A stretch of 64,000 nt of DNA, taken from positions 1 to 64,000 of the IMG/VR virus record IMGVR_UViG_3300037493_003260; one strand, given 5' to 3'. This DNA is from a virus. Both the position numbers and the translations under genes were made by a program. Under the pieces are notes generated by a model that saw nothing but the letters and a program-made list of their open reading frames with translations, searched no databases and was not told where the DNA came from. This document shows positions 1,374 through 38,631 of this stretch, in pieces (the stretch's first letter is position 1; each line of letters starts with the position of its first letter).

Positions 1374-1445
1374 GGTGGCTATTGGGACTCGAACCCAAAC
1401 TGGCTCCATCACAGGGAGACGTGCAGCCGATTACACTATAGCCAC
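1374..1445 (-). tRNA. tRNA-His(GTG)
   Basis: Cloverleaf: acceptor GTGGCTA/TAGCCAC, discriminator C, anticodon loop CT-GTG-AT, T arm TTGGG-TTCGAGT-CCCAA; CCA not encoded. Confidence 0.92.
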
Positions 1446-21917: not shown

Positions 21918-23033
<1,116 letters not shown>

Positions 23034-24249: not shown

Positions 24250-24300
24250 AAAAAGTTGACTAGGTGCCCAAAGATTCCTACTTTGGGCACCATTGTCAAT
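24250..24300 (-). terminator. Rho-independent terminator after major capsid gene
   Basis: TTGAC..GGTGCCCAAAG / CTTTGGGCACC..GTCAA followed by CTTTTT. Confidence 0.8.
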
Positions 24301-24327: not shown

Positions 24328-26514
24328 TTAGGCTGCGATATTGATAATCCTGCCTTGGAACGCTTCGCAGGTCATTTGAAGTACCGAGAATTCGGCAATC
24401 AAAGTCCTGTAAGCAGACTGAAGCAACGCAAGGTCGATAGCTGACAACGGCATGAGGTCAACCATCTGCACTGCGTTACCGTCTTCCAACACTGTTTTGT
24501 CGTCGATGACGAGGGCAAAAGAATCACCATGAACGTCTTCCACAATATAGCGAGAGCCGATAATATCGACCAAGCCAAACGGGGAAAGCCATTTGGTAAT
24601 ACTGATACCAGCGGGAATATCCGCCATCGTACCAGCTCCTGCCTGGAACAGCTTGTAATAGCTGGACATCACCAGTTCGGAAATCTTCTGCAACTCACGA
24701 TAACCAACAACAACAGCTTGAGGCTTCCCACCCTTGTTCACGATTTTCTTGCAAACTGCAGTTAAATCGGAAAGAGCTAAGGGCTGATTAACGCCGCCAA
24801 CTTTGCAGTCTTGAACGTTCGTCACAATCTGTTTGTTAAGACCATCGAACTGAAGCGGAGAGACCGAAGAATCGCCGTTGATAATGGCCCATTCTTCAAT
24901 CAACGCTACGTTCAACATCTTGGTCTTAATTTGGTGCTTCTTAATATCCGTGTACGTCCCGCCAGCCATTTGTTCAAAGAACGAAACGGTAGCAAGGTCG
25001 CCCACACTGACATAAGGAGCCGATTTGTAAACGTAAGACGGCTGAGTAGCAGTCGGAAGCCCACCTTTGGCAAAAAAAGCATCCTCAGGGGCAGTTCCAC
25101 CAAGGAACAGATGACCAGCAGACTGTGCGCCTGCGGAAATGGTCGGAATTAGCTGGTACCAAGCATGCACTAATGTTACGCAATCTTTCGATTGGGATTG
25201 CTATTTCTAGCAACCTCTCATAGTTACCTATGAGGTCGGACTATATCATCACTATACTAGTGTTCGGCGTGTAGTCTCTACGGATTCTACTAGGTATTCT
25301 TAGTAGCCTTTCCTCGGTATTGTCCTTTGCAGGAGGTTCACCGATATAGCCAAATTTTACAAGGCCCATTGTGTTAAGCCTTGCCGTTCCCTTGAATCCG
25401 ATTGAGTCGGTTTCGGAGCGGAGTGTCCGTTGGTGCCATAATCGCCCAAATAAGATTTCTCTTATGGGATTGTTACACTGTAAATTAGCCAGCGGTTAGG
25501 GCATTTCTGCCTAACTCTGCATGTCACCATGCAGTTCGGACTATATCTTCAATTTAAGATTCGTCATGCACTAGGTTTGCGAATGTTGTTAATTTGATTA
25601 CTATATCCGCTAAGCCTTCTTAAATGTGTGGCGTTGAGTCTCTGAGGGAGTAAGTTGATACATTCATCTAAACGGTCTGATTTTCGTTTGATTGAAAATC
25701 GACACCCAGCTCTAATGAAAGAAGCTACGTTGAACCTGTAGTGGACAACTGGCTTAATACTACCTGCAAAGCCACCCTTACAGATTAACGGTTTGGGCCA
25801 AACTGAAACTCCAAGGGAAGTTAAAAGCTTGTTGTATTGAGCAAGTAAATCTGTGTCTGTTGAACAATAGCCTATTTGATGTCTATAGGTATCAAAGTGC
25901 TTCTGTTTAGACTTGCTAATATAACCGTCTCCATCTATAAAGCCAGTGATTAACTTATGCTTTACAATTGGAAGTGCTTCCCAGGTTTCGTCTGGTAAAG
26001 ATGACCCATTTTTCGTTGCCAGCAGTACCCATCGGCAGAGTTCGTCACACCGTACAAAAACGTTGTAAAGGAGCTTTCTAGTGCCCCGTTGCTGTTCAGA
26101 AATAGTAACCTTTCTGCCCAGTAATTTTTGTAAAGTAATTGCGACGGACTCAGCAAAGTCTTTATCGGTAACAGATAAACAAAATCTATAACAGTTATCT
26201 TGTGTAAGATTAATGCATCCATCACTGAAATAAACACCTATGAGATATGCTGTGTTTGAGTCAAGTTTAAATTGTATCATTTTACCTTTCCTGCTGATTG
26301 TCTTCTATACTCTATTATACCATATTTTTACACTTTGGTAATGGTATATTTATCAGAAGATGTTCCAGCAAATAGCCACATTATGAGACAGCGATTAACC
26401 TATCTCAGCTTGGAGGTCCTCACGAACCAACATCAAGCCGTCAACTGGAGTGGAACTAATAGCCTTCTGAATATCTTGAAGTGCTTGTTCTACGAGTTGA
26501 GCATTGTATGACAT
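24328..26514 (-). CDS. Major capsid protein, three exons: 26514-26402, 25446-25377, 25167-24328 (340 aa spliced)
   Basis: ATG 26514 with AAGGAG SD; 113+70+840 = 1023 nt in frame: MSYNAQ..LVREDLQAE-M-AIMAPTDTPLRNRLNRIQGNGKA-HAWYQL; EEWAIINGD..FDGL HK97-fold pattern. Confidence 0.92.
25168..25376 (-). mobile_element. Group I intron 2 of capsid gene (209 nt, no ORF)
   Basis: P1 AAGGCU/GGCCUU with U.G at the splice site; P10 AUG/CAU; R GUAGAGACUACACG; S GAUGAUAUAGUCC; terminal G. Confidence 0.92.
25564..26280 (-). CDS. Intron-encoded two-motif LAGLIDADG homing endonuclease
   Basis: YLIGVYFSDG and LITGFIDGDG. Confidence 0.9.
   Translation of the reverse strand: MIQFKLDSNTAYLIGVYFSDGCINLTQDNCYRFCLSVTDKDFAESVAITLQKLLGRKVTISEQQRGTRKLLYNVFVRCDELCRWVLLATKNGSSLPDETWEALPIVKHKLITGFIDGDGYISKSKQKHFDTYRHQIGYCSTDTDLLAQYNKLLTSLGVSVWPKPLICKGGFAGSIKPVVHYRFNVASFIRAGCRFSIKRKSDRLDECINLLPQRLNATHLRRLSGYSNQINNIRKPSA
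26314..26341 (-). promoter_or_regulatory. Putative intron-internal promoter for the endonuclease
   Basis: Extended -10 TGgTATAAT about 35 nt upstream of the ATG; weak -35 TTACCA. Confidence 0.55.
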
Positions 26515-26552
26515 GTAAATAATCTCCTTTCTTTTAGTATTTTTTGGAGCAC

Positions 26553-35823: not shown

Positions 35824-36170
35824 TTTTTGTTAATAGCTGTCCGTTTTACAAACGCCTTGAGCAGCCCTCTTTCGATGAGTTCGTCGTTGTAAGATGTGTC
35901 TTTTCCAGAAAGATAAAGGAACGCAAGATATGTTCCAGATTTCTCGGACTTTAAAGACTTGACGGTTACCTCTTTGTTAAGAAGTTTTTCGGTCAGTGTT
36001 TTCTTTATAAGCGTTGCCTTTTCAGGATTTTTATTTCCACGAAATTCCAAAAAGTCTATTCCTGCAAGCCGAAACTCTTGGTTTTTTAATACTCCGAAAC
36101 CCAGGTCAACAGTAAGGATAAGGCATTCCTCGCTGATAATTTCTGTTACAAGTGCCAGATATTTATGCAT
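35820..36170 (-). CDS. Staphylococcal nuclease (SNase)-like protein, degenerate
   Basis: VDLGFG..RLAGID..N.ELI..G retained; DGDT and DKYGR replaced by SEEC and EKSGT. Confidence 0.7.
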   Translation of the reverse strand: MHKYLALVTEIISEECLILTVDLGFGVLKNQEFRLAGIDFLEFRGNKNPEKATLIKKTLTEKLLNKEVTVKSLKSEKSGTYLAFLYLSGKDTSYNDELIERGLLKAFVKRTAINKK

Positions 36171-38631
36171 GTAAATCTTCCTTTATTGCATCTATTGCGG
36201 CTTTCGCATCAACCAATCCCACGCCGCATTCATCAGCGGTAAAGGCTAGCGGTTTTGCGGTTGTCTTAAGAAGGTGCTTCACTGCAGCACACCGTTCTTT
36301 ATAATCTTTGGTCCAACTTGGAGCCGCCTCAAGAATTAGTGCACAAATTCCTGCAACCACTGGGGTTGCCATAGAAGTTCCACTCATGCGTTGGTAGGGC
36401 ACAGCATCTGATTGAACAGAACAATTATTCATGGGGGTATCGGCACTTTTTACCGATGTAACCCCATTTTCGTAATAGCAACCACCATAAGAAGCTTTAG
36501 TGCCACCGCCTGGGGCTACAAGGTCAGGCTTGGTTAAATTCACACCGTTGAAAATCACAGGGCCACGGGAACTGTAGCGTGTAATCTTGTTGTCCCTGTC
36601 TACTGCACCGACAGTAATTACTTTTGCAGCACAACTAGGGGACCCAATTGTATTTGCTCCAGGGCCTTCATTTCCTGCGGCCACAACTACAACAATGCCT
36701 TCAGAAGCCAGTGCATCTGCTTCCCGTGAGATGGCATCATCAGGAGTTCCTTCGCCACCAAGACTCATGGAGATAATATCGGCTCCTTGGTCGGCAGCCC
36801 ACGACATTCCCTTAATCACGGTATCGTTTGACCCGTGCCCGCTGTCGTTTAAAACCCGTGCATCTATAAGAACAACTTTTGGGGCAACGCCACGATAAAG
36901 TTTTCCACCGCCAGCGATTACGCCAGCACAATGCGTGTTATGAGCAATAAAGCCATTTGCTGTATAGTTATGGTTTTTAGTGACTGTAAAATCATAGAGA
37001 GTGGTGTTCGTATCTTGTATTGAAATATTACAAATCTTGTCAGCAACTCGACGATGGCAGTTTGGATTCTTTAGCTTTTTAAAGTGTAAAAATTTGCCGA
37101 GTTCCGTGTTACAAGAGAGGCCTACAGCGTAGCACATATTTTTATTTCCGAAGGTACTCTTATTAGAGCTGTGTTTACAAATCCAAGAACGAATACCTAA
37201 GGCCTTAAGTAGGGAACAAAGTCCATCGGCAAATTGTTTGCTTCCAGTAATAATTCTAGCTTTGCTATTAATACAGCCATCTCCATCAATGGCCCCAGCC
37301 AAAAAAGAAAAAATAACACTTCGAGGAGACTTAGAAATAACGTAAGGTAACGTGACAGTTAGTGATTTGTTTCCAATAGGAATTCCAAGCTTATTAAATA
37401 AAAATACCAATTCTTTGTTATAGACGGAAACCCTATACGTATTGCGTTGCCTAAGGTCTTTCTTTACTTTCGGGGCATAATCAAATAACTCCTTAAAACC
37501 GTCGCAAAAATTTTGAACCAATTCAAGTGAATTACTAGTAAATTCGATTCTGGCGTTGCATCCAGCCTTCTCTTTTTTTAAATAGGACAAGTGACCGTCA
37601 GTTAATACTAGACCTACTAGGTACGCTAACTTTTCATTAACAGGCAAATTACTACCTCTAAATGGCACATAATGGTAATCATTTATATCTAACGAAGAAT
37701 CTGTAAGTTTGATGCACTCACCGACTTGGAGTTCATCAGCCCGTTTTTCTTTAATTGTCAATTCATGGCCCCTTGTTGAGGTAACCACAAAAACCTTGTG
37801 CCACGGCGTTAGGGCTAAACTACCACCTCTTGTGGTAATAGTGTACAACTTTCCAGTGTAAGGAATTTTATGTACAAATTCCATTTGGTCTGGCTCACAT
37901 ATTCCCTGAAGATTACAAGAAATGGTTTTAATGTTAAATCGTTTAATGTCTTTAACAGTAGAGCCATCCGTTAACTGGTAGGATTCTCCTGGAGATTTTT
38001 CGTATACAGTTTCGATTGTTTGCAATCCGCACAACGATGTGTACACTTTGGTATTGGCAGTTATACAGCCATGACCAACGCCATCCAGTTTTGCAATCTT
38101 GGGTGTTTTGGGGCGATTCCAAAACCATTTGCCAAAATAATCAGGCTGTGAAAAATCATACCGAGCAACTACTTTTCCTGCCAGGTCGGGGTGTCTGTCA
38201 TTGATTCCTGTATCGACGACAGCGACTTTAATTCCCTTTCCTTCGTACCCTGTTGTGGCTCTCAGTACAGAAACTTCTGTCTGAACTGCTGCCCTATCCA
38301 TATAAGCTCTGACTTGTTTCACAGGTTCAATGTCTACGTGGAGTTTCTCCTTGAGCCATTCCATTTGCTCAGAGGTTAACGCTGATTGAAATTCAACAAC
38401 CATGGCGTTAATACGCCGATGGAGTTGAATTAGTTTTCCGCCAAATTTTGCAATATCCTGAAGTTTTACGCCTGCCCGATTAAGAACTAGAAGAGCCGTA
38501 AGAAATGCGACTCCTGCAAGAAGGGGGTGCTTTGTAAAAACAGATTTAATGATTTTGCCAGCTTTAAGATATAAGAAATATCTCGGCAAAACATTTTCTT
38601 GACGTTGTAAATTTGTGATTTCTAAACTCAT
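36163..38631 (-). CDS. Subtilisin-like (S8) serine protease containing an intein
   Basis: VAVVDTGI, HG|TH, AAGN, SGTSMATP; N-terminal hydrophobic segment and propeptide. Confidence 0.93.
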   Translation of the reverse strand: MSLEITNLQRQENVLPRYFLYLKAGKIIKSVFTKHPLLAGVAFLTALLVLNRAGVKLQDIAKFGGKLIQLHRRINAMVVEFQSALTSEQMEWLKEKLHVDIEPVKQVRAYMDRAAVQTEVSVLRATTGYEGKGIKVAVVDTGINDRHPDLAGKVVARYDFSQPDYFGKWFWNRPKTPKIAKLDGVGHGCITANTKVYTSLCGLQTIETVYEKSPGESYQLTDGSTVKDIKRFNIKTISCNLQGICEPDQMEFVHKIPYTGKLYTITTRGGSLALTPWHKVFVVTSTRGHELTIKEKRADELQVGECIKLTDSSLDINDYHYVPFRGSNLPVNEKLAYLVGLVLTDGHLSYLKKEKAGCNARIEFTSNSLELVQNFCDGFKELFDYAPKVKKDLRQRNTYRVSVYNKELVFLFNKLGIPIGNKSLTVTLPYVISKSPRSVIFSFLAGAIDGDGCINSKARIITGSKQFADGLCSLLKALGIRSWICKHSSNKSTFGNKNMCYAVGLSCNTELGKFLHFKKLKNPNCHRRVADKICNISIQDTNTTLYDFTVTKNHNYTANGFIAHNTHCAGVIAGGGKLYRGVAPKVVLIDARVLNDSGHGSNDTVIKGMSWAADQGADIISMSLGGEGTPDDAISREADALASEGIVVVVAAGNEGPGANTIGSPSCAAKVITVGAVDRDNKITRYSSRGPVIFNGVNLTKPDLVAPGGGTKASYGGCYYENGVTSVKSADTPMNNCSVQSDAVPYQRMSGTSMATPVVAGICALILEAAPSWTKDYKERCAAVKHLLKTTAKPLAFTADECGVGLVDAKAAIDAIKEDLHA
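36937..38067 (-). mobile_element. Intein (377 aa) with LAGLIDADG endonuclease in the S8 protease
   Basis: HG|CITANT..LTPWH..LVGLVLTDG..FLAGAIDGDG..YDFTV..IAHN|TH. Confidence 0.93.

What the first reader, a model, noticed from the sequence alone, without database searches (positions are those of the whole stretch)
24328..26514. Major capsid gene split by two group I introns around a 70-nt micro-exon
Seen: both introns have P1 with the U.G pair, P10, core elements and terminal G, and splicing restores a 340-aa frame. Unspliced exon 1 stops after 39 codons. Known: phage group I introns mostly sit in DNA-metabolism genes, so two in the most abundant structural gene is unusual. The ORF-less intron could spread by co-conversion with its neighbour. 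Skipping exon 2 would shift the frame, so capsid output depends on two accurate splicing events.
Basis: partly seen in the sequence, partly recalled or inferred. Interest (0 to 1): 0.8.

Follow-up and report, generated by a model that had tools for sequence, protein, structure and literature searches.

The report
Phage capsid gene with two introns

Summary
Confirmed. On the minus strand, an SU10-type (PF17236) major capsid gene is split as follows: exon 1 26514-26402; intron 1 26401-25447 (955 nt, with a 238-aa LAGLIDADG ORF); exon 2 25446-25377 (70 nt); intron 2 25376-25168 (209 nt, no ORF); exon 3 25167-24328.

Uninterrupted 340-aa homologues (95% identical) read exactly exon 1, a split Met codon, exon 2, then exon 3. 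tblastn of one of them gives three HSPs ending at these borders.

Rfam RF00028 scores intron 2 at 65.9 bits (cut-off 50) and the core of intron 1 at 44.6 bits. Both introns have a P1 with U.G, a P10 and a terminal G. An unconstrained fold of intron 1 recovers P3-P6 across the ORF.

DNA contigs from other samples lack intron 2 exactly, some while keeping intron 1. No RNA data exist, so splicing is inferred.

Capsid-gene introns (LittleE, Tuc2009) and tandem introns around a short exon (Twort orf142, 23 nt) are in print, so this is a new member of a known kind.

The added finding is that 18 of 42 distinct related loci are interrupted, at eight or more sites, six of them within CDS nt 99-193. The inserts carry LAGLIDADG, HNH or DUF559 endonuclease ORFs.

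Co-conversion is possible but not needed for intron 2.

The parts
26524..26529 (-). Shine-Dalgarno-like AAGGAG, 9 nt upstream of the capsid start codon
   Evidence: read directly
26402..26514 (-). Capsid exon 1: 37 codons plus the first two bases (AT) of the split Met-38 codon. Its last 6 nt (26407-26402) form the exon strand of P1 of intron 1.
   Evidence: identical to residues 1-37 of P0003
25447..26401 (-). Intron 1, group I, 955 nt. An in-frame UAA is the third codon after the 5' splice site. Elements: P1 guide 26389-26384; P10 guide 26396-26390, pairing with 25446-25440; P3 26380-26375/25632-25627; P4 26369-26365/26297-26293; P5 26360-26354/26307-26301; P6 26292-26273/25662-25645; P7 25640-25637/25542-25539; P8 25625-25618/25559-25552; P9 25534-25528/25523-25517; P9.1 25515-25495; P9.2 25464-25451; terminal G 25447.
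   Evidence: RF00028 44.6 bits over 25789-25517. The unconstrained MFE fold recovers P1 and P3-P6 across the ORF. P7, P8 and P10 are my own reading. The junction is unique by protein match.
25564..26280 (-). Intron-1 ORF, 238 aa, a double-motif LAGLIDADG homing endonuclease. Its start codon and the AGGAAAGG before it lie in the 5' strand of P6. The ORF runs on through P6', P7, P3' and the 5' strand of P8, and stops in the P8 loop.
   Evidence: PF14528 E 6.9e-14, 52.3 bits against cut-off 22.5, two stretches. PHROG endonuclease families. 26-30% identical to ORFs of capsid-gene introns in L046, L037 and L003.
25377..25446 (-). Capsid exon 2, 70 nt: the G of Met-38 plus 23 codons (AIMAPTDTPLRNRLNRIQGNGKA). 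The first 7 nt pair in P10 of intron 1. The last 6 nt form P1 of intron 2.
   Evidence: (100% identity to P0003 residues 39-61)
25168..25376 (-). Intron 2, group I, 209 nt, no ORF and no P2. UAA is the first in-frame codon after the 5' splice site. Elements: P1 guide 25366-25361; P10 25369-25367 with 25167-25165; P3 25354-25349/25268-25263; P4 25344-25339/25319-25314; P5 25334-25331/25326-25323; P6 and P6a 25313-25282; P7 25276-25272/25243-25239; P8 25262-25250; P9 25234-25217; P9.1 25215-25196; P9.2 25194-25181; terminal G 25168.
   Evidence: RF00028 65.9 bits, E 1.7e-14, above the cut-off. MFE fold z -4.46, with 0 of 200 shuffles as stable. 8 of 28 consensus pairs keep pairing through changes on both sides, in P3, P6 and P6a. 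The run X2 contig joint 25167->25377 skips exactly these 209 nt.
24328..25167 (-). Capsid exon 3: 279 codons plus the stop (24328-24330); the bulk of the SU10-type capsid domain.
   Evidence: PF17236 E 1.7e-13. In the full-length homologue the Pfam domain spans residues 31-335, so both introns lie inside it.

Best explanation
The major capsid protein gene of an uncultivated tailed phage (an 84-kb IMG/VR record from a sediment metagenome) is interrupted by two independent group I introns 70 nt apart.

Proposed course of events:
1. The late transcript is made as one pre-mRNA.
2. Each ribozyme folds and excises itself by the usual two transesterifications. A guanosine attacks after the U of the P1 U.G pair, then the exon's 3'-OH attacks after the terminal G.
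3. Exon ligation gives a 1023-nt frame for a 340-aa SU10-type capsid protein.
4. Ribosomes that enter an unspliced intron stop at once at in-frame UAA codons.

Intron 1 is a mobile element. It carries a double-motif LAGLIDADG homing endonuclease gene that starts in P6 and ends in the loop of P8. I infer that the enzyme cuts intron-less capsid alleles of co-infecting relatives at the exon 1/exon 2 junction, so that repair copies the intron in.

Intron 2 is the ORF-less descendant of an intron that still carries an ORF at the same site in more distant relatives.

Shown here: borders, ribozyme signatures, restoration of the frame, and presence/absence polymorphism.
Inferred: self-splicing, endonuclease activity, homing, and correct inclusion of exon 2.
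For: Exon structure:
- P0003 and P0004 (340 aa, 95% and 94% identical over exon 3) read ...LQAE-M-AIMAP...GNGKA-HAWYQ. That equals the translations of exon 1 and exon 2, plus the AT|G codon, plus exon 3.
- The alignment shows the same.
- tblastn gives 3 HSPs at 26514-26401, 25445-25377 and 25167-24331.
- Enumerating junctions gives one best junction for intron 1. For intron 2 it gives two, of which only one has U before the intron and G at its end.
- The joined frame is open for 340 codons.

Ribozymes:
- RF00028 scores 65.9 and 44.6 bits. These are the only two RF00028 hits in the 84-kb record.
- Folds recover P1 and P3-P6, plus P9-P9.2 with GNRA loops.
- Compensatory changes occur in P3 and P6 against homologous introns of L050, L055 and L056.

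Mobility:
- L001 and L002 (99% and 89% protein identity to P0003) have a continuous gene.
- A run X2 contig skips exactly 25168-25376.
- X2 record 14 covers intron 1 at about 94% identity. It then reaches exon 3 with 63 unaligned letters, exactly what remains if the 209 nt are absent.
- The endonuclease ORF is intact, with both LAGLIDADG motifs.

Context: a head maturation protease gene lies upstream and a head-tail adaptor gene downstream.
Against: - No RNA evidence of any kind.
- Intron 1 scores below Rfam's gathering cut-off (44.6 against 50), and Rfam mis-aligns its 5' half.
- By my reading, P7 of intron 1 has only 4 pairs and P10 of intron 2 only 3.
- The P7, P8 and P10 assignments are manual.
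- The endonuclease has no sequence match among solved structures, and its activity and target are untested.
- The record is an uncultivated contig estimated 80% complete.
- The only run holding the whole stretch identically may be its own source.
Confidence: 0.9

Rival explanations
1. Intron 1 is a decayed ribozyme, kept only as a carrier of the endonuclease gene. It no longer splices or needs a host or phage factor, so this capsid allele is dead or crippled, for example in a defective genome caught by assembly.
For: RF00028 is below the cut-off at 44.6 bits. P7 has 4 pairs by my reading. The last roughly 27 codons of the ORF overlap P6', P7, P3' and P8, which could interfere with folding. In relative L046 I found no G at the expected 3' end of a related intron, so decay does occur in this family.
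Against: P1, P10 (7 bp), P3, P4, P5, P6, P8, P9-P9.2 and the terminal G are all in place. The low score follows from a 640-nt ORF inside P6 that the model cannot span. A relative in another study keeps the same intron at about 94% identity. The capsid exons show no damage.
Confidence: 0.05
2. The gene is expressed in pieces. Exon 3 is translated on its own from the GTG at 25170 as a 280-aa capsid protein, and the 39-aa exon-1 peptide is separate or irrelevant.
For: An ORF of 280 aa with a GTG start exists. Gene callers recorded it and similar truncated proteins: 35 of the 120 listed clusters are truncated at one end.
Against: I see no Shine-Dalgarno motif before the GTG. The 61 N-terminal residues are among the most conserved of the family (invariant columns). 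They lie partly inside the Pfam capsid domain, which spans residues 31-335. The GTG is the last three bases of a sequence that scores as a complete group I intron.
Confidence: 0.03
3. Assembly artefact: intron-like sequence from other organisms in the metagenome was stitched into the capsid gene through the conserved group I core.
For: Many unrelated contigs pile up on the conserved P7-P9 cores (depth peaks at 25453-25602, loose ends and 'goes back' joints). These segments are repeat-like within the samples.
Against: The borders are exact to the base and carry matching P1 and P10 guides to the flanking capsid exons. A 7467-nt contig covers the whole stretch without a difference, though it may be the source. 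A 748-nt contig from another study joins intron 1 to exons 2 and 3. L055 and L056 carry a homologous intron at the same site.
Confidence: 0.02

Closest known systems
Staphylococcus phage Twort orf142 (three group I introns, exon skipping; Landthaler and Shub 1999)
   Same: A phage virion gene carries several group I introns with a very short internal exon. PMC10136302 (introduction passages read) gives a 23-nt exon between introns 2 and 3, retained or skipped. PMC11878797 (discussion passage read) says orf142 encodes a tail tube protein.
   Different: Here the gene is the major capsid gene and the internal exon is 70 nt. The two introns differ in their guide sequences and share only a 51-nt stretch at 78% identity. 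One of them carries a LAGLIDADG gene. No splicing data exist. The original Twort paper (PMC22036) is not held, so its details come second-hand.
Mycobacteriophage LittleE capsid-gene intron (Pope et al. 2013, PMC3706429)
   Same: [quoted passage not shown] It holds an endonuclease gene that the text likens to a LAGLIDADG homing endonuclease. Splicing was shown by RT-PCR and N-terminal protein sequencing (abstract and passages read).
   Different: LittleE has a single intron, its endonuclease gene is on the opposite strand, and the capsid family and host are different. Here there are two introns and the ORF is on the sense strand inside P6 to P8.
Lactococcus phage Tuc2009 major head protein intron
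   Same: A group I intron in a major head gene, listed in a table of PMC2504315 (passage read) and cited in PMC3706429.
   Different: I saw only the listings, no details. It is a single intron in an unrelated capsid family.
Phage T4 td intron with I-TevI
   Same: As I recall it, not checked here: the endonuclease ORF is looped out of P6, its ribosome-binding site is sequestered in intron structure, in-frame stops lie just inside the intron, and translation and splicing are coupled. The predicted P6 here also encloses the AGGAAAGG and the AUG of the ORF.
   Different: T4 td is a DNA-metabolism gene, its endonuclease is GIY-YIG rather than LAGLIDADG, and here the sequestration is only an MFE prediction.
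Jug jumbo phages and Bastillevirinae: genes split by 2-3 group I introns
   Same: [quoted passage not shown]
   Different: Those hosts are enzymes of DNA metabolism or packaging. PMC11878797 states that introns colonised only such genes in its set. Capsid genes are not reported in the passages I read, and the supplementary tables were not seen.

Membership tests
Group I intron (Rfam RF00028): intron 2 | Conserved core (P3-P8 with the P7 guanosine site) scoring above the family cut-off | tested here: met
   65.9 bits against 50, model positions 1-253, E 1.7e-14; the same in the own-genome search
Group I intron (Rfam RF00028): intron 2 | P1 with U.G at the 5' splice site, a terminal G, and P10 to the 3' exon | tested here: met
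   AAGGCU pairs with GGCCUU and U25377 pairs with G. The intron ends at G25168. P10 has 3 bp. Rfam itself aligned an exon-2 hairpin as P1, which I reject because no U.G falls at a border that restores the frame.
Group I intron (Rfam RF00028): intron 1 | Conserved core scoring above the family cut-off | tested here: inconclusive
   44.6 bits against 50, E 1e-9. The 3' half (P7, P3', P8, P7', P9) aligns well. The 5' half is mis-aligned because the ORF sits in P6. The MFE fold of the whole intron finds P3 (6 bp across 748 nt), P4, P5 and P6.
Group I intron (Rfam RF00028): intron 1 | P1 with U.G, a terminal G, and P10 | tested here: met
   UGAGAU pairs with GUCUCA and U26402 pairs with G. P10 has 7 bp, AAUCGCU with GGCGAUU. 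The terminal G is 25447.
Group I intron (both) | Excision restores a functional host gene | tested here: met
   The joined exons give 340 aa with no internal stop. They are colinear with uninterrupted homologues.
Group I intron (both) | Self-splicing activity (guanosine-dependent) | not testable with these tools
   No RNA run holds the stretch. A bench assay is needed.
LAGLIDADG homing endonuclease (intron-1 ORF) | Two LAGLIDADG motifs with the acidic residues, in one chain of about 200-250 aa | tested here: met
   PF14528 at 52.3 bits against 22.5, two stretches. The motifs ...YFSDG... and ...FIDGDG... are read. The ORF is 238 aa.
LAGLIDADG homing endonuclease (intron-1 ORF) | Site-specific cleavage of the intron-less allele | not testable with these tools
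   Intron-less alleles exist (L001, L002), but cleavage is untested.
Mobile (homing) intron | Presence/absence polymorphism at exactly the same site among close relatives | tested here: met
   Intron 1 is absent in L001 and L002 and present at about 94% identity in run X2 record 14. Intron 2 is absent in L001 and L002 and in X2 and X4 contigs (exact 209-nt joint). A homologous intron sits at the same site in L055 and L056.
SU10-type major capsid protein (PF17236 / DUF5309) | Match to the family profile above the cut-off, in a head-module context | tested here: met
   Exon 3 scores 51.2 bits against 24.1. Full-length P0003 scores 62.4 bits over residues 31-335. PHROG major head protein families match, and a head protease and head-tail adaptor flank the gene.

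The most novel reading that the evidence does not exclude
The conserved N-terminal coding segment of this capsid family is a battleground for mobile introns. At least six different insertion sites lie within 95 nt (CDS nt 99, 113, 177, 183, 190, 193) and more lie downstream. The inserts carry three or more unrelated endonuclease families.

Close relatives differ in which site is filled: the window has 113 and 183, L003, L059 and L060 have 99, X2 has 113 only, and L001 has none.

On this reading the introns act as weapons in co-infection. Each endonuclease cuts the capsid gene of intron-less competitors. The tandem pair in this window is then the product of successive invasions, and it makes the allele immune to two endonucleases at once.

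A fraction of exon-skipped, frame-shifted transcripts could in addition throttle capsid output.
Probability: 0.3. Interest if true: 0.7.

Novelty: new member of a known kind. Interest (0 to 1): 0.5.

Why it matters
The capsid protein is needed in hundreds of copies per virion, so a phage that must complete two accurate ribozyme reactions 70 nt apart for every capsid mRNA is a demanding natural test of group I splicing efficiency and of exon inclusion versus skipping.

The practical lesson is for annotation. Gene callers recorded this gene as a 280-aa fragment, and 35 of the 120 related protein clusters are truncated at one end in the same way. Capsid-based phage classification and marker-gene surveys therefore under-read such genes.

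The family-wide picture is that 18 of 42 distinct loci are interrupted, with LAGLIDADG, HNH and DUF559 ORFs. This offers a compact natural system for studying how homing endonucleases partition neighbouring target sites in one essential structural gene.

Tried and rejected
Searches that gave nothing:
- tblastn of exon 3 against the INPHARED phage records gave no match, so no cultivated relative could be used.
The DNA behind the truncated protein clusters (P0012, P0015, P0020, P0047, P0081 and others) was therefore not seen. Their recurring starts (MKAHAWYQ, VHAWYQ and so on) only suggest introns and could also be contig ends.
- The look-up of sequencing runs listed no RNA holder, so expression and splicing could not be examined. 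Read laying used DNA contigs only.
- phmmer of the endonuclease against PDB sequences gave 0 matches.
- The Twort paper PMC22036 is not held.
- A literature search for DUF5309, 'SU10 major capsid' or PF17236 returned 3 papers. None concerns introns, judging by title and abstract start in the listing. I found no paper on introns in this capsid family in searches.
- Supplementary tables of PMC11878797 (its list of split phage genes) and of PMC12880540 were not opened. They may list capsid cases.

Readings rejected or left open:
- Rfam's own placement of P1 of intron 2 on the exon-2 hairpin (25412-25392) is rejected. It gives no U.G and no frame-restoring border.
- Rfam's placement of P1-P6 of intron 1 inside the ORF is rejected in favour of the elements next to the 5' splice site.
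- My first guess that the L003 sequence around 871-885 was P7/P3' was wrong. By similarity to intron 1 it is P7' plus P9.
- The junctions of the insertions in L014/L048, L046 and L047 could not be made to fit U...G, and they are left unclassified.
- In the Rfam scan of 18 interrupted or broken-off loci, 13 had no RF00028 match at E <= 0.01, and only 1 of the 6 matches was above the cut-off.
- The promoter-like site inside intron 1 (26341-26314) is no more than chance would give: 7 sites found against 5.1 +/- 2.5 in shuffles.
- The intron subgroup (IA, IB, IC) was not determined, because no subgroup models are on hand.
Full report
WHAT IS THERE

The gene lies on the minus strand.
- An ATG at 26514, preceded by AAGGAG, opens a frame that stops after 39 codons (ORF 26395-26514).
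- A 280-aa ORF (24328-25170) matches Pfam PF17236, the SU10 major capsid protein. The match covers only profile positions 102-291 of 292, so its N-terminus is missing.
- Between the two lie 1.2 kb holding a 238-aa ORF with two LAGLIDADG motifs (PF14528, E 6.9e-14).
- The neighbours are a head maturation protease upstream and a head-tail adaptor downstream. This is the capsid slot of a head module.
- The window is part of an 84,088-base IMG/VR virus record estimated 80% complete.

EXON STRUCTURE

A protein search with the 280-aa ORF found 140 relatives at E <= 0.001 among 1883 candidates, and the best 120 were listed.
- The closest full-length relatives, P0003 and P0004, are 340 aa and 95% and 94% identical. 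They begin with the 37 residues of exon 1, then M, then the 23 residues encoded by 25445-25377, then HAWYQ....
- tblastn of P0003 on the window gives three HSPs and no more: q1-38 at 26514-26401, q39-61 at 25445-25377 (100% identity), and q62-340 at 25167-24331.
- A script tried every junction near the HSP ends. It found a single best junction for intron 1, after CDS nt 113. For intron 2 it found two equal ones, of which only nt 183 puts a U before the intron and a G at its end.
- The parts are therefore: exon 1 26514-26402 (113 nt), intron 1 26401-25447 (955 nt), exon 2 25446-25377 (70 nt), intron 2 25376-25168 (209 nt), and exon 3 25167-24328.
- The joined frame is 1023 nt with one terminal stop.
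- In P0003 the Pfam domain spans residues 31-335, so both introns sit inside the capsid domain.

THE RIBOZYMES

Intron 2 matches Rfam RF00028 end to end at 65.9 bits (cut-off 50, E 1.7e-14).
- Its minimum-energy fold (z -4.46; 0 of 200 shuffles as stable) shows P1, P3, P4, P5, P6/P6a, P9, P9.1 and P9.2. L5, L9, L9.1 and L9.2 are GNRA loops.
- P7 (GACUA/UAGUC) and P8 follow from the Rfam alignment.
- P1 pairs AAGGCU with GGCCUU, with U25377.G. The three bases 5' of that guide pair with the first three bases of exon 3 (P10).
- I aligned it with homologous introns from L050, L055 and L056. In that alignment, 8 of 28 consensus pairs keep pairing through changes on both sides, in P3, P6 and P6a. 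This rests on only four sequences.

Intron 1 scores 44.6 bits (E 1e-9 on 1.5 kb; 1.3e-11 in the own-genome search), which is below the cut-off.
- The model aligns its 3' half well but misplaces the 5' half.
- The real 5' elements sit right after the splice site. P1 pairs UGAGAU with GUCUCA, with U26402.G. The seven bases 5' of the guide pair with the first seven bases of exon 2 (P10).
- An unconstrained fold of the whole intron finds P3 (UGUGGC/GCCACA, 748 nt apart), P4, P5 and a long P6 that closes around the ORF.
- The ORF's AUG and the AGGAAAGG before it lie in the 5' strand of P6.
- The ORF then runs through P6', P7, P3' and the 5' strand of P8, and stops in the P8 loop.
- The two introns share the P9-P9.1-P9.2 layout but only 51 nt at 78% identity, and their guide sequences differ.
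- Both have an in-frame UAA within three codons of the 5' splice site.

EVIDENCE FROM OTHER DNA

No RNA run holds the stretch, so splicing itself is not shown (see Tried and rejected). DNA contigs of four runs were laid on it.
- Run X1 holds the stretch whole and identical, but it may be the source.
- In X2, from a different study, one contig joins 25167 to 25377 and so skips exactly the 209 nt of intron 2.
- X2 record 14 (748 nt) covers 25999-25390 with 36 differences in 610 letters. It resumes at 25117 with 63 letters unaligned, exactly what is left if intron 2 is absent. That relative therefore has intron 1 without intron 2.
- In X4 a contig joins 25168 to 25393 with 15 letters between, again the length expected without intron 2.
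- A loose end at 25446 in X4 reads as exon 1 joined directly to exon 2, preceded by the 3' end of a different intron.
- L001 and L002 (99% and 89% protein identity to P0003) have a continuous gene with synonymous differences around both sites.

THE FAMILY IS RIDDLED WITH INSERTIONS

I collected 17 viral and 43 metagenome loci, which make 42 distinct loci by a 150-nt exact-match test. The metagenome scan was seeded with exon-1 peptides, so this is not an unbiased sample.
- 24 of the 42 have an uninterrupted gene and 18 are interrupted or break off inside the contig.
- The 18 loci scanned with Rfam were 17 of these (all but L045) plus L057. The scan gave six RF00028 matches at E <= 0.01 in five loci: L050 twice (75.8 and 46.3 bits), L037 (49.6), L003 (46.5), L046 (43.5) and L043 (30.9). 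Thirteen loci had none.
- Junctions that fit U...G were found at these CDS positions:

| CDS position | Loci |
|---|---|
| nt 99 | L003, L037, L059, L060 |
| nt 113 | the window |
| nt 177 | L044 |
| nt 183 | the window, L055, L056 |
| nt 190 | L043 |
| nt 193 | L050 |
| nt 460 | L050 |
| about nt 971 | L045 |

- All the N-terminal sites fall in columns that are invariant among eight full-length proteins.
- Fifteen insertion ORFs were scanned against Pfam:

| Pfam result | ORFs | Above the curated cut-off |
|---|---|---|
| LAGLIDADG families | 6 | 2 |
| HNH | 4 | 4 |
| DUF559/MTES_1575 | 2 | 2 (DUF559 model) |
| NUMOD3 | 1 | 0 |
| no match | 2 | - |

- The window's endonuclease is 26-30% identical to the ORFs in L046, L037 and L003.
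- L059 and L060 have an exon 1 that is 97% identical in protein to P0003, whose exon 1 equals the window's. They carry the nt-99 intron rather than the nt-113 intron.
- Among the 120 protein clusters, 85 span both ends of P0003 and 35 are truncated, with recurring starts just after these sites. Without the DNA this only suggests introns.

The best account is ordinary group I biology: two independent self-splicing introns, the first mobile through its LAGLIDADG enzyme.
- The co-conversion idea is plausible, because 70 nt is well within the tract lengths I recall for phage homing. It is not needed, however.
- L055 and L056 carry a homologue of intron 2 at the same site, with an ORF of its own after P3', in genes that have no intron 1. 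An X2 relative has intron 1 alone.
- Intron 2 therefore looks like an intron that arrived by itself and later lost its ORF.
- Exon skipping would indeed shift the frame. I expect it to be rare, for two reasons. The P10 guide of intron 1 has no match to the start of exon 3. Work on tandem Tetrahymena introns also found that distinct splice-site recognition sequences suppress skipping (PMC10136302, discussion passage). This expectation is inference.

COMPARISON WITH PRINT
- A capsid-gene intron that splices was shown for mycobacteriophage LittleE (PMC3706429, abstract and passages).
- One is listed for the Tuc2009 major head gene (PMC2504315, table passage).
- Twort orf142, said to be a tail tube gene, has three introns with a 23-nt exon and exon skipping (PMC10136302; PMC11878797).
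- Coxiella 23S rRNA has a 34-nt exon between two introns (PMC10136302).
- Jug phages have terL in two or three pieces, with read support for splicing (PMC12880540).
- PMC11878797 notes that phage introns mostly sit in DNA-metabolism and terminase genes.
- The window is thus a new member of a known kind. In six searches I found nothing in print on the density of sites in this capsid family.

VERDICT

My confidence that both introns are real and splice to give the 340-aa capsid protein is 0.9. Interest is 0.5: a clean, instructive case and a useful annotation lesson, but neither capsid introns nor tandem introns around a micro-exon are new.

Noticed in passing
window 36163-38631 (-): An 822-aa subtilase (PF00082, E 5e-57) is interrupted by an intein with a LAGLIDADG endonuclease (Intein_splicing E 4.9e-17, LAGLIDADG_3 E 2.6e-13, Hom_end). 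Its endonuclease part is 25% identical over 181 aa to the intron-1 ORF (pairwise E 0.002). The genome thus carries three self-splicing elements.
   Followed up: partly
L053:59-142 (+): A c-di-GMP-I-GGC riboswitch match (RF03167, 57.9 bits against cut-off 59, E 4.8e-11) lies about 310 nt upstream of the capsid gene start in a related metagenome contig.
   Followed up: no
window 26314-26341 (-): A promoter-like site (TTACCA, 16 nt, TATAAT, with TG) lies inside intron 1, 34 nt upstream of the endonuclease start codon. The number of such sites in the region is not above shuffles.
   Followed up: no
window 24262-24294: A perfect 11-bp inverted repeat (GGTGCCCAAAG ... CTTTGGGCACC) lies just after the capsid stop codon. 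On the minus strand a T-run follows 8 nt later. It could be a terminator or RNA-stability hairpin, but the terminator scan did not list it.
   Followed up: no
window 25392-25412 (-): A hairpin inside exon 2 (GAAACCGAC...UCGGAUUC), within the codons for RNRLNRI, was taken by Rfam for P1 of intron 2. Its role, if any, is unknown.
   Followed up: partly
L046:727-1630: A LAGLIDADG-bearing intron sits near CDS nt 100-102 (RF00028 43.5 bits). I could find no G at the position where the frame would be restored, so it may be a decayed copy or have an unusual 3' splice site.
   Followed up: partly
P0081; L047:4110-4936: In some relatives the capsid frame runs on after ...VLEDG into an HNH endonuclease ORF (466-aa fused call). 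This is an insertion near codon 291 whose borders do not fit U...G.
   Followed up: partly
window 21918-23033 (-): A 371-aa protein consists largely of collagen-like G-P-T/G-D-T triplet repeats, presumably a fibre.
   Followed up: no
window 1374-1445 (-): A tRNA gene is present (RF00005, 54.8 bits).
   Followed up: no
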